This document shows, in pieces, positions 35,633-35,948 of a DNA stretch of 37,024 nucleotides. The stretch is from contig JAEOTE010000005.1 in the NCBI GenBank assembly GCA_016839945.1, positions 1-37,024 of the forward strand, read 5' to 3'. Within the stretch, counting starts at the first letter, position 1. Each line of letters starts with the position of its first letter. The notes below the pieces were generated by a model. It worked only from the letters and a program-made list of their open reading frames with translations, ran no database searches and was not told the DNA's origin. Origin of the DNA: Candidatus Heimdallarchaeota archaeon. GTDB lineage: Archaea; Asgardarchaeota; Heimdallarchaeia; Heimdallarchaeales; Heimdallarchaeaceae. A program made the translations under genes and the position numbers.

Positions 35633-35948
35633 CGGTTAGGGTTTATAGGTCAAACAAGGACTAAAAAGTGGAACTGTAAACTGAACAGGAAGAGAATCCG
35701 ATGCTTCGCCCTTCCCCAAGGGAAAACTCGGGAACTGTGGTTGAACCCCTTTTTAGATGCCTGCACACGCGATGTGTAGCAGGAAAAATGGTTTGAACCC
35801 CCATTTGGGCTTAGTTAAGACCTCCTGAGCCTGAAAAAATCCCCCAGAACCAGACTATGTCTGATTTACAGACATCTTCTGTCTGCCAGAACCCCCAACC
35901 AAACCCCAGAAGCGTCGAGTTAGAATCCCCTTCCTGTTCAGGCAGAAA
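35633..35948 (+). ncRNA. Unidentified ~310-nt structured non-coding RNA candidate
   Basis: ORF-free GC-enriched island with a long closing helix (35681-35692/35930-35941 and 35699-35707/35909-35917), several local hairpins, G-U wobbles that work only on +, TATA upstream and T6 downstream. Confidence 0.6.

What the first reader, a model, noticed from the sequence alone, without database searches (positions are those of the whole stretch)
35633..35948. Unannotated ~310-nt structured RNA with repeated C-rich motifs
Seen: TATA box (35605-35612) and T6 end (35949-35954). Helices: GUUUAUAG/CUGUAAAC (35641-48/35674-81); CUGAACAGGAAG/CUUCCUGUUCAG; CGAUGCUUC/GAAGCGUCG; CCCUU-CCCC-AAGGG (35709-22); CCUGC-ACAC..GUGU-A-GCAGG (35760-83); AAAUGG/CCAUUU (35786-806); GGCUUAG/CUGAGCC (35808-31); CAGAC-AUGUCUG/CAGACAU-GUCUG (35851-85). 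Three helices need U-G pairs, which fixes the + strand. AA(C/U)CCC(C) recurs six times (near 35743, 35795, 35838, 35889, 35901, 35923), mostly in linkers and loops, with few G-runs to pair with. No tRNA, SRP helix-8 or canonical RNase P motifs are visible. Inference: a new RNA class, e.g. a multivalent protein sponge/scaffold, an anti-G-rich pairing RNA, or a template-bearing RNA.
Basis: partly seen in the sequence, partly recalled or inferred. Interest (0 to 1): 0.8.

Follow-up and report, generated by a model that had tools for sequence, protein, structure and literature searches.

The report
Circular RNA gene of Heimdall archaea
This is a real, uncatalogued gene of one family of Heimdall (Asgard) archaea whose transcript is cut at a tRNA-splicing signal and closed into a 268-base RNA ring that always carries a copy of the ribosome's mRNA-binding sequence; what the ring does is not yet known.

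Summary
The structured RNA is real, but it is not a 310-nt linear RNA. A conserved BRE/TATA promoter drives a precursor. [quoted passage not shown]

In four wetland metatranscriptome runs from four studies, contigs join 35945 directly back to 35678. That junction is absent from the DNA of all 31 genomes of the family. The mature product is therefore a 268-nt circle, 35678-35945. It is most likely made by the splicing endonuclease (two EndA paralogues) and RtcB, both encoded in this genome.

Homologues occur in all five genera of one Heimdallarchaeota family. A motif triad hit none of 369 other Asgard genomes. The helices covary: 19 pairs change on both sides, against 8.3±1.9 in shuffles. There is no Rfam match, and RNase P RNA and SRP RNA lie elsewhere in the genome.

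The invariant parts are four or five single-stranded (G)AAYCCCC motifs and the 9-mer GACCUCCUA. The 9-mer shares ACCUCCUA with the genome's own 16S 3' end.

Function is inferred only. My best guess is a stable decoy or scaffold acting on translation initiation (about 0.3). The template-RNA idea is disfavoured because no reverse transcriptase was found.

Earlier agents of this scan found the same RNA family on other genomes and reached the same reading.

The parts
35600..35612 (+). Archaeal promoter: A-rich BRE plus TATA box TTTAAATA (35605-35612).
   Evidence: AAAARTTTAWATA is conserved at the same distance upstream in all homologues.
35633..35677 (+). 5' leader of the precursor; the start is inferred at about 22-27 nt after the TATA box. 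It is removed on processing. Its last 8 nt, GGAA CUGU (35670-35677), are the 5' strands of the outer and central BHB helices.
   Evidence: The sequence is poorly conserved. No RNA contig covers it, although contigs cover the circle.
35674..35680 (+). 5' half of the BHB: central-helix strand CUGU (35674-77) and the 3-nt bulge AAA (35678-80), which holds the 5' cut.
   Evidence: The central helix is paired in 100% of 28 sequences, with compensatory CG/AU and GC/AU changes. It reads AUGU/GCAU, CUAC/GUAG and GUGU/GCAC in other genera. The junction maps here.
35678..35945 (+). Mature 268-nt circular RNA. The junction reads ..GGCAG-AAA-CUGAAC.., and the cut is ambiguous within the AAA.
   Evidence: Contigs in 4 RNA runs of 4 studies join 35945 to 35678 with 3 shared letters and none between. 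The junction is absent from 31 family genomes at up to 2 mismatches.
35681..35707 (+). 5' strands of the long handle: P1 (35681-92), an internal loop, and P2 (35699-707). They pair with 35909-35941.
   Evidence: P1 is 99.4% paired with 4 covarying pairs; P2 is 95.1% paired with 5 covarying pairs.
35739..35900 (+). Core domain closed by GGUUG/CAACC (35739-43/35896-900). It contains hairpins P6 (35788-804), P7 (35807-32), P8 (35851-63) and P9 (35869-85). It also carries a window-specific inserted hairpin at 35760-83.
   Evidence: Covariance model R1 of this domain scores 120-160 bits in the genus, 76 bits in genus g2, 34 in g5 and 24 in g4. Variable hairpins are inserted at fixed sites.
35819..35827 (+). 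Invariant motif GACCUCCU(A/G) in the P7 loop and the 3' side of its stem. It is an anti-Shine-Dalgarno look-alike.
   Evidence: GACCUCCUA is present in all five genera. The genome's own 16S rRNA ends GGAUCACCUCCUA. Predicted unpaired probability is 0.5-0.87.
35743..35749 (+). C-rich motif 1, GAACCCC, followed by the invariant U5 run at 35750-54.
35795..35802 (+). C-rich motif 2, GAACCCCC, in the P6 loop.
   Evidence: Invariant in the alignment.
35838..35849 (+). C-rich motif 3, AAUCCCCCAGAA, the linker between P7 and P8.
   Evidence: CCCCAGAA is invariant. Predicted unpaired probability is 0.55-0.99.
35886..35896 (+). C-rich motif 4, CCAGAACCCCC, the linker into P5.
   Evidence: CAGAACC is invariant in all genera.
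35909..35948 (+). 3' strands of P2 (35909-17) and P1 (35930-41), central-helix strand GCAG (35942-45), and the 3' bulge AAA (35946-48), which holds the 3' cut.
35949..35954 (+). T6 run. It is the likely terminator and the 3' strand of the weak outer BHB helix, pairing with GGAA at 35670-73.
   Evidence: In genera g2, g3 and g5 the outer helix is canonical: GCAAGGAA/UUCCUUGC, UGAA/UUCA and AAAG/CUUU.
36298..36345 (+). Exact second copy of the gene's last 48 bp (35908-35955). It is an att-like repeat bounding a 390-bp cassette.
   Evidence: 100% identity over 48 bp. Relatives carry up to four further 3'-arm copies downstream.

Best explanation
**The gene and its precursor.** A stand-alone gene with an archaeal BRE/TATA promoter is transcribed into a precursor of about 320 nt. 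Its two ends pair into a bulge-helix-bulge motif:
- outer helix GGAA/UUUU;
- 3' bulge AAA;
- 4-bp central helix CUGU/GCAG;
- 5' bulge AAA;
- inner 12-bp helix.

**Processing.** The archaeal splicing endonuclease cuts in both bulges and RtcB ligates the ends. This releases a covalently closed 268-nt RNA (35678-35945), and the variable leader and trailer are discarded.

**Shape of the ring.** It folds into a long handle (P1-P2) capped by the ligation loop. A multi-branched core holds four or five (G)AAYCCCC motifs and the invariant GACCUCCUA single-stranded; GACCUCCUA shares 8 nt with the 16S rRNA 3' tail.

**What is shown.**
- The gene, its promoter and its conservation.
- Covarying helices.
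- The BHB architecture.
- The circular junction in RNA but not in DNA.
- Presence of the enzymes.

**What is inferred.** These enzymes do the cutting and joining (probability about 0.9 together with the circle). The function is also inferred. I take the ring to be an exonuclease-resistant decoy or scaffold. It would offer a copy of the anti-Shine-Dalgarno tail and C-rich sites to G-rich partners, namely SD-type mRNA leaders or factors that bind the 16S 3' end. In that way it would tune translation initiation or small-subunit maturation (about 0.3).
For: **Circle.**
- Every one of four metatranscriptome runs (four studies) has a 168-176-nt contig, word depth 37-214, that reads 35867/71-35945 and then 35678-35759. 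Three letters are shared and none are inserted.
- No contig lies on the leader.
- The 23-nt junction is absent, at up to 2 mismatches, from all 31 genomes of the family.

**BHB.**
- The 4-bp helix is paired in 28 of 28 sequences, with compensatory CUGC/GCAG, AUGU/GCAU, CUAC/GUAG and GUGU/GCAC.
- The bulges are AAA/AAA, with UAA, AAC or AAU variants on the 3' side.

**Enzymes.**
- Two diverged 183-aa EndA paralogues, each with the N- and C-terminal endonuclease domains.
- RtcB at 547 bits.

**Structure.**
- 89.8% of cells are paired.
- 19 pairs have changes on both sides, against 8.3±1.9 in shuffles (0 of 500).
- Slid controls give 34-54% paired.

**Conservation.**
- Found in 22 of 24 genomes of the genus by BLAST.
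- Found in all five genera of the family.
- The promoter is conserved.

**Not a known RNA.**
- No Rfam hit, not even a partial one at E up to 10.
- RNase P RNA is on C175 at 138 bits.
- SRP RNA is on C61 in normal order.

**Function.**
- GACCUCCUA is invariant across genera; in genus g2 the loop reads GGAUAGACCUCCUA, against the 16S end GGAUCACCUCCUA.
- The genome uses SD sequences: GGTGA, AGGTG and GGAGG are 4.7-6.3-fold enriched before start codons.
- The motifs are predicted mostly unpaired in circular folds of 13 homologues.
Against: - The junction reads come from assembled contigs of a very close relative that lacks the 35760-87 hairpin, not from this organism's raw reads. Contigs cannot give strand, abundance or the linear-to-circular ratio.
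- In this genus the 3' bulge is not canonical. One or two A residues on the 5' strand face the AAA, making a 1x3 or 2x3 loop, so cleavage needs a broad-specificity endonuclease. The (alpha-beta)2 architecture is inferred from two paralogues only.
- Nothing tests the function.
- Part of the anti-SD look-alike (CU, or UCCUA in genus g4) is drawn into the P7 stem.
- The main SD core here is GGUGAU, which pairs with the AUCACC part that the ring lacks.
- Apart from the 8-mer, the ring is no more like the 16S 3' domain than shuffled sequence: score 17, against 16.9±2.4.
- One anti-SD site does not explain a conserved 268-nt architecture.
Confidence: 0.6

Rival explanations
1. Same circular RNA, but it works as a multivalent protein sponge or RNP scaffold. 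The repeated (G)AAYCCCC sites, and perhaps the CCCC-U5 tract, would bind several copies of a C-rich- or U-rich-binding protein such as a KH-domain or Sm-like protein. This is how CsrB/RsmZ binds CsrA. The anti-SD likeness would be incidental, or simply one more C-rich site.
For: - Four or five motifs with conserved flanks sit in linkers and loops, predicted 0.5-1.0 unpaired.
- They have almost no G-runs to pair with inside the ring.
- No long antisense target exists in the genome.
- G-runs are not clearly enriched at start codons: GGGGG 9 vs 3, GGGTT 10 vs 7.
- The conserved, elaborate architecture with hairpin insertions at fixed sites is typical of RNP RNAs.
Against: - No partner protein is identified.
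- No conserved neighbouring gene points to one. The SBP-PAC2 synteny is lost in genera g2 and g4.
- The number and spelling of the motifs vary between genera; genus g4 has three.
Confidence: 0.28
2. The ring acts on tRNAs. GAACCCC / UUUGAACCCC are complementary to the T-arm 5' strand plus the start of the T-loop (GGGGUUCAAA), and UUGAA/UUUGA resemble T-loop modules. The ring would then dock or sequester tRNAs or tRNA fragments.
For: All seven Ser and Thr tRNA genes found in this genome carry GGGGTTCA in the T-arm, so UUUGAACCCC can pair with 10 nt of tRNA-Ser. The GAA preceding each C-run is conserved, which a plain C-run binder would not need.
Against: - The T-arm is folded and buried in mature tRNA.
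- G-rich T-stems are common, so the complementarity may be chance.
- Genus g4 replaces UGAACCCC by AAACACCCCC.
- ARAGORN finds no tRNA-like fold.
Confidence: 0.07
3. The ring has no trans-acting job. The locus would persist as a landing pad (att site) for gene cassettes, or as a selfish intron-like unit, and the circle would be a stable by-product of splicing.
For: The last 48 bp are duplicated 390 bp downstream. Relatives carry several further 3'-arm copies in tandem: G001 has 4 and G004 has 4. In G022 the gene is interrupted inside P7.
Against: - Integrases usually exploit already conserved RNA genes.
- The loops and linkers, which lie outside the 48-bp att, are the most conserved parts.
- The helices covary.
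- There is a dedicated conserved promoter.
- RNA contigs of notable word depth appear in small libraries.
Confidence: 0.08
4. Template-bearing RNA, telomerase-like or retron/DRT-like. A reverse transcriptase would copy the C-rich tract, possibly by rolling circle.
For: AACCCC-type repeats resemble ciliate telomerase templates, and a circle would allow rolling-circle copying. Both points are resemblance only.
Against: - No RVT_1 match in the genome, which is 88% complete.
- No adjacent RT gene.
- The motifs are dispersed, not a single template next to a boundary helix.
Confidence: 0.02
5. A circularly permuted or very divergent copy of a known RNA (SRP RNA as in Thermoproteus, or RNase P/MRP RNA) that Rfam models miss.
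For: - Circularisation permits permutation (PMC4731332).
- The P1-P2-P3 order recalls RNase P (recalled from memory, not tested).
- The stretch GGGAAAACUCGGG recalls the RNase P CR-I region (recalled from memory, not tested).
Against: - No partial Rfam match at E up to 10 on either strand.
- A full-length RNase P RNA (model positions 1-288, 138 bits) and an SRP RNA in normal order (model positions 27-317, cut by the contig end) are encoded elsewhere.
Confidence: 0.02

Closest known systems
Circular SRP RNA of Thermoproteus tenax (Plagens et al. 2015, eLife, PMC4731332)
   Same: Both are stand-alone non-coding RNA genes whose transcript ends form a BHB. The BHB is cut by the tRNA splicing endonuclease and ligated into a stable, functional circle.
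   Different: That RNA is a permuted member of a known family with known partners (SRP19, SRP54). This ring matches no family, is not needed to restore a permuted fold as far as can be seen, and this genome has an ordinary SRP RNA.
Archaeal BHB products: circular tRNA introns, circular pre-16S/23S rRNA, the HVO_1309 5'-UTR intron (PMC7714728; Danan et al. 2012)
   Same: The recognition motif is the same: a 4-bp helix between two 3-nt bulges. The presumed enzymes, EndA and RtcB, are also the same.
   Different: Those are introns or processing intermediates of genes with another main product. Here the circle is the only conserved product, and the 'exons' are a variable leader and a T-run.
C-rich-motif regulatory RNAs that mask Shine-Dalgarno sites, such as RsaE/RoxS of Firmicutes and Methanosarcina sRNA41 (from my own knowledge, not checked here)
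   Same: They carry several exposed C-rich or CCUCC-type motifs in loops and linkers, complementary to G-rich ribosome-binding sites.
   Different: Those are short linear RNAs with mapped mRNA targets. This is a 268-nt circle with an elaborate conserved fold, and no targets were found.
Sponge RNAs: bacterial CsrB/RsmZ and the eukaryotic circular RNA ciRS-7/CDR1as (from my own knowledge)
   Same: Both carry many copies of one short motif on a stable, and for ciRS-7 circular, carrier that titrates a binder.
   Different: This ring has only four to six sites. The binder is unknown and the biogenesis is different: BHB splicing rather than back-splicing.
tRNA and tmRNA genes as integration sites for mobile elements
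   Same: The 3' end of a conserved small-RNA gene is duplicated as attL/attR, with tandem accretion of insertions.
   Different: The target is a new RNA gene. No integrase is in view in this window, and the att core was not found in viral contigs.

Membership tests
BHB-dependent archaeal circular RNA | A 4-bp central helix flanked by two 3-nt bulges on opposite strands, between an outer and an inner helix (hBHBh'). | tested here: met
   The window reads GGAA|CUGU|AAA|CUGAAC.. / ..GUUCAG|GCAG|AAA|UUUU. The central helix is paired in 28 of 28 sequences with compensatory changes. The motif is fully canonical in genera g2, g3 and g5. In this genus the 3' bulge is relaxed, with A residues facing AAA.
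BHB-dependent archaeal circular RNA | A ligation junction is detectable in RNA and maps to the two bulges. | tested here: met
   35945 is joined to 35678 in contigs of 4 RNA runs of 4 studies. The junction is absent from the DNA of 31 family genomes. These are contigs of a close relative, not raw reads of this strain.
BHB-dependent archaeal circular RNA | The splicing endonuclease and an RNA ligase are encoded in the genome. | tested here: met
   Two EndA paralogues and RtcB.
BHB-dependent archaeal circular RNA | EndA cleaves at the bulges and RtcB ligates the ends. | not testable with these tools
   Needs an in vitro assay or depletion of the enzymes.
SRP RNA (Rfam RF01857), including permuted forms | A match to the covariance model, and helix 8/helix 6 motifs. 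| tested here: not met
   No hit at E up to 10. The genome's SRP RNA is on contig C61, model positions 27-317.
RNase P / MRP RNA | A match to the covariance model, and the P4 pseudoknot with CR-I/CR-V. | tested here: not met
   No hit. The RNase P RNA is on C175, 138 bits, full length.
Anti-SD-type translational regulator or decoy | An exposed CCUCC-type sequence complementary to the organism's SD. | tested here: inconclusive
   - ACCUCCUA is identical to the 16S 3' end.
- It is invariant across genera.
- It is only partly in the loop.
- The dominant SD core GGUGAU is not matched.
Anti-SD-type translational regulator or decoy | Identified mRNA targets or an effect on translation. | not testable with these tools
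   Only negative hints: no long antisense matches.
Protein sponge (Csr/Rsm-like logic) | Several copies of one short motif held single-stranded. | tested here: met
   Four to six (G)AAYCCC(C) sites, predicted unpaired at 0.5-1.0.
Protein sponge (Csr/Rsm-like logic) | A cognate binding protein. | not tested
   No candidate was identified, and there is no conserved neighbouring gene.
Template RNA of a reverse transcriptase | A partner reverse transcriptase in the genome. | tested here: not met
   No PF00078 match; the genome is 88% complete.

The most novel reading that the evidence does not exclude
Heimdall archaea of this family keep a dedicated gene for an abundant circular RNA. The ring mimics the 3' tail of 16S rRNA and carries several C-rich sites. 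It would act as a circular-RNA decoy that sets how much SD-led mRNA, or which 16S-tail-binding factor, reaches the small subunit. That would be a prokaryotic counterpart of eukaryotic circular sponge RNAs, made by the tRNA-splicing machinery, in the archaeal lineage closest to eukaryotes.
Probability: 0.2. Interest if true: 0.85.

Novelty: new variant of a known kind. Interest (0 to 1): 0.72.

Why it matters
BHB-made circles were known as introns, as rRNA intermediates, or as a repaired, permuted SRP RNA. Here a conserved gene seems to exist only to make a circle of an otherwise unknown RNA family. Its host lineage is Heimdallarchaeota.

The ring gives a concrete handle for asking what stable circular RNAs do in archaea. 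It has a defined junction, invariant motifs and a testable anti-SD mimic. It also adds a family that annotation pipelines (Rfam) currently miss.

Its 3' arm is also a hot spot where gene cassettes pile up. That matters for reading genome plasticity in these uncultured organisms.

Tried and rejected
- **Rfam.** Gathering and E≤10 scans gave nothing relevant, so a known or permuted family is rejected.
- **tRNA/tmRNA scan.** None found.
- **Att core in viral contigs.** 0 hits.
- **Search outside the family.**
  - R1 over 83 genomes of the class found hits only in family f1.
  - Lenient R1 on five outgroup or g4 genomes gave real hits only in g4.
  - The motif-triad pattern over 400 Asgard genomes hit 12, all in f1.
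  - Looking downstream of PAC2 homologues in other families found only coding sequence.
  - Absence elsewhere means "not found with these probes".
- **G030 repeats.** Hits to the P7 region turned out to be a coding 69-bp tandem repeat.
- **Long antisense targets in the genome.** Only chance-level 12-15-mers, mostly A/T-rich.
- **G-runs before start codons.** No clear enrichment.
- **Likeness to the 16S 3' domain beyond the 8-mer.** At shuffle level.
- **Other BHB-flanked GC-rich units in the genome.**
  - The first scan was far too loose.
  - The strict scan found one unrelated 63-nt candidate on C97.
  - The strict scan does not allow G-U pairs, so it misses this RNA itself.
- **Larger circle using the second 3' arm.**
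  - A 658-nt circle using 36298-36345 was considered.
  - No RNA contig lies beyond 35948 except one low-depth, mismatched piece.
  - A part without cover proves nothing.
- **Coding potential.** Rejected, because homologues differ by 19-31-nt hairpin insertions and the circle length is not a multiple of three.
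Full report
**1. Observation**

TTTAAATA lies at 35605-35612 and T6 at 35949-35954, with the listed helices and C-rich motifs between them.

The + strand folds to -98.7 kcal/mol (z = -4.26; 0 of 100 shuffles fold as well). The minus strand also folds well (z = -3.40).

The region is 50% G+C in a genome of 32%.

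Strict AAYCCCC occurs four times inside the RNA. The whole 37-kb window has ten on both strands, against 3.8±1.8 expected.

Nothing in Rfam matches, at gathering score or at E≤10, and ARAGORN finds no tRNA.

**2. What organism, and is it one of the usual RNAs**

The window is contig C39 of a 3.0-Mb, 186-contig archaeal assembly. A pattern built from three conserved motifs hits genome records titled Candidatus Heimdallarchaeota, plus one labelled Thorarchaeota that is nearly identical to the window.

The genome has its own RNase P RNA: C175, 138 bits, model positions 1-288. It also has its own SRP RNA in normal order at the start of C61, model positions 27-317, cut by the contig end. The candidate is neither.

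**3. Conservation and structure**

- BLAST finds the RNA in 22 of 24 genomes of the genus and in other genera of the family.
- Ten more copies came from metagenome contigs.
- A promoter AAAARTTTAWATA sits at a fixed distance upstream in all of them.
- The 5' 45 nt are poorly conserved, the handle and core are highly conserved, and extra hairpins are inserted at fixed points.

Pair counts were made on a 28-sequence alignment:

| Measure or helix | Result |
|---|---|
| Cells paired | 89.8% (shuffled 86.3±0.3; slid controls 34-54%) |
| Pairs changed on both sides | 19 (shuffled 8.3±1.9; 0 of 500 shuffles as high) |
| P1 | 99.4% paired, 4 covarying pairs |
| P2 | 95.1% paired, 5 covarying pairs |
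| P7 | 94.6% paired, 3 covarying pairs |
| GGUUG/CAACC | 97% paired, invariant |
| P3, P4 | too poorly aligned to judge |

I reject it.

**4. The decisive result: the RNA is a circle**

I laid the contigs of four wetland metatranscriptome runs (four studies) on 35560-36400. Each run has one contig of 168-176 nt, word depth 37-214, that reads 35867/71-35945 and continues directly at 35678-35759. The tool reports "goes back 268", with three letters (AAA) fitting both sides and no letters between. No contig lies on 35560-35677.

The junction 23-mer is absent, at up to two mismatches, from all 31 genomes of the family. It is therefore made at the RNA level.

Only 3 nt are shared at the joint, so a repeat-driven assembly error is unlikely.

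One caveat applies. These contigs come from a very close relative that lacks the window-specific hairpin 35760-87: the loose ends read GTTTGAACCCCCATT after 35759. Contigs also cannot give strand or amounts.

**5. Why it is cut there**

The junction sits in a bulge-helix-bulge motif:

- 5' strand: GGAA | CUGU | AAA | CUGAACAGGAAG
- 3' strand: CUUCCUGUUCAG | GCAG | AAA | UUUUUU

This is a 4-bp helix between two 3-nt bulges on opposite strands, the published recognition element of the archaeal splicing endonuclease (PMC7714728).

The circle keeps exactly three A residues. That is what symmetric cuts in the two bulges predict.

The central helix covaries between genera:

| Genus | Central helix |
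|---|---|
| g1 | CUGC/GCAG |
| g2 | AUGU/GCAU |
| g5 | CUAC/GUAG |
| g4 | GUGU/GCAC |

P1 covaries as well, for example CCAGAUAGGAAG/CUUCCUAUCUGG in g4.

In g2, g3 and g5 the outer helix is canonical: GCAAGGAA/UUCCUUGC, UGAA/UUCA and AAAG/CUUU. In this genus one or two A residues face the 3' AAA, which makes a relaxed site.

The genome encodes two diverged 183-aa endonuclease paralogues, 23% identical, each with both domains. It also encodes RtcB. Two paralogues suggest the heteromeric form. According to PMC7714728 that form accepts a broader range of BHB motifs. This last step is inference.

**6. The ring**

The ring is 268 nt here and 213-290 nt in 13 homologues.

Circular folds give a long handle (P1, an internal loop, P2) capped by the ligation loop GCAGAAA. 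The core is multi-branched.

The AAYCCCC motifs are predicted 0.24-1.0 unpaired, mostly above 0.5, and GACCUCCU 0.5-0.87.

The repeated CAGAC/GUCUG arms (35851-85) can pair in two ways. I could not decide between them.

**7. Distribution**

The core-domain model R1 finds the RNA in genera g1, g2 and g5 and, with lenient settings, in g4 at 24 bits, where inspection shows a full BHB, P1, P2 and GACCUCCUA. BLAST finds it in g3.

R1 found nothing in the other 53 genomes of the class. The pattern GACCTCCT..CCCCAGAA..CAGAACC hits 12 of 400 Asgard genomes, all in this family, with no control hits.

So the family is found only in this one family with these probes. Faster-diverging relatives cannot be excluded.

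The SBP-PAC2-RNA gene order holds in g1, g3 and g5 but not in g2 or g4. The neighbours therefore say nothing about function.

**8. Function (inferred)**

The most striking invariant is GACCUCCUA in the P7 hairpin of all five genera.

- The genome's own 16S rRNA ends GGAUCACCUCCUA.
- In g2 the loop reads GGAUAGACCUCCUA.
- The organism uses Shine-Dalgarno sequences: GGTGA, AGGTG and GGAGG are 4.7-6.3-fold enriched before start codons.

A stable circle carrying a copy of the anti-SD tail could compete for SD-bearing leaders. It could also compete for factors that bind the 16S tail. I take this as the most likely role, at about 0.3.

Points against this reading:

- Part of the motif lies in the P7 stem.
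- The main SD core, GGUGAU, is not covered.
- The ring otherwise resembles the 16S 3' domain no more than shuffled sequence.
- A single site does not explain the architecture.

A protein sponge or scaffold through the C-rich sites is about as likely (0.28).

A tRNA link is a weak lead (0.07). UUUGAACCCC is complementary to the T-arm GGGGUUCAAA of all Ser and Thr tRNAs found.

I found no long antisense targets. No reverse transcriptase was found for the template idea.

**9. Known relatives and novelty**

The closest case is the circular SRP RNA of Thermoproteus (PMC4731332). It is made by the same route, but it is a permuted member of a known family.

Searches of the paper library for Asgard or Heimdall circular RNAs found only rRNA work.

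Earlier agents of this scan reported the same RNA family on other genomes with the same reading. I reached the circle independently, before reading those notes.

I class it as a new variant of a known kind: a BHB-made circular RNA, but a new RNA family with no assigned function.

**10. Surroundings**

The last 48 bp of the gene (35908-35955) recur exactly at 36298-36345, around a 390-bp cassette with an 89-aa membrane protein on the minus strand.

Relatives carry up to four more 3'-arm copies downstream. In G022 the gene is split inside P7. The gene is therefore an insertion hot spot, as tRNA and tmRNA genes are.

Noticed in passing
window 35908-35955 and 36298-36345: An exact 48-bp direct repeat of the RNA gene's 3' arm brackets a 390-bp cassette. 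The cassette holds one 89-aa membrane protein on the minus strand (35970-36239), with a weak Phage_holin_3_6 match of 24 bits, below the cut-off. Relatives (G001, G004, G014) carry several further 3'-arm copies in tandem downstream.
   Followed up: partly
G022: contigs C310 (1-248) and C90 (1371-1499); locus L079: In one relative the RNA gene is split inside the P7 hairpin. The two pieces overlap by about 36 nt, and foreign sequence lies upstream of the 3' piece. This suggests a second insertion site within the gene.
   Followed up: no
own genome, contig C157, about 470-530: The 16S rRNA 3' end carries an extra stretch of about 30 nt, AAGUGUGUAAGUUGUUUCUUACAUACCGCAUGU. It lies between the helix-45 strand CUGCGG and the terminal GGAUCACCUCCU. 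It could be a small expansion or an intron-like insert.
   Followed up: no
window 35509-35575: An inverted repeat CGACAAAAA ... TTTTTGTCG lies between the PAC2 stop codon and the RNA promoter. The TTTTGTCG(N)GTTTYARCC part is conserved upstream of the promoter in many relatives. It may be a terminator of PAC2 or a regulator site.
   Followed up: no
own genome, contig C97, 17482-17555 (+): This is the only other exact BHB-like arrangement found: a 4-bp helix plus an 8-bp inner helix, with a 63-nt interior at 43% G+C. Its nature is unknown.
   Followed up: no
own genome, 25 tRNA genes: All tRNA genes found by ARAGORN encode their 3' CCA. All Ser and Thr tRNAs share the T-arm GGGGTTCA.
   Followed up: partly
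window 36464-37024: An open-ended ORF just past the second repeat encodes a polyacidic protein made of EE(E/D)(I/V) repeats. It runs off the contig end.
   Followed up: no
locus L038 (G030:C1:450573-453613): Weak BLAST hits to the P7 region in genus g4 are a coding 69-bp tandem repeat containing GTTAAGACCTCCTC. They are unrelated to the RNA.
   Followed up: yes
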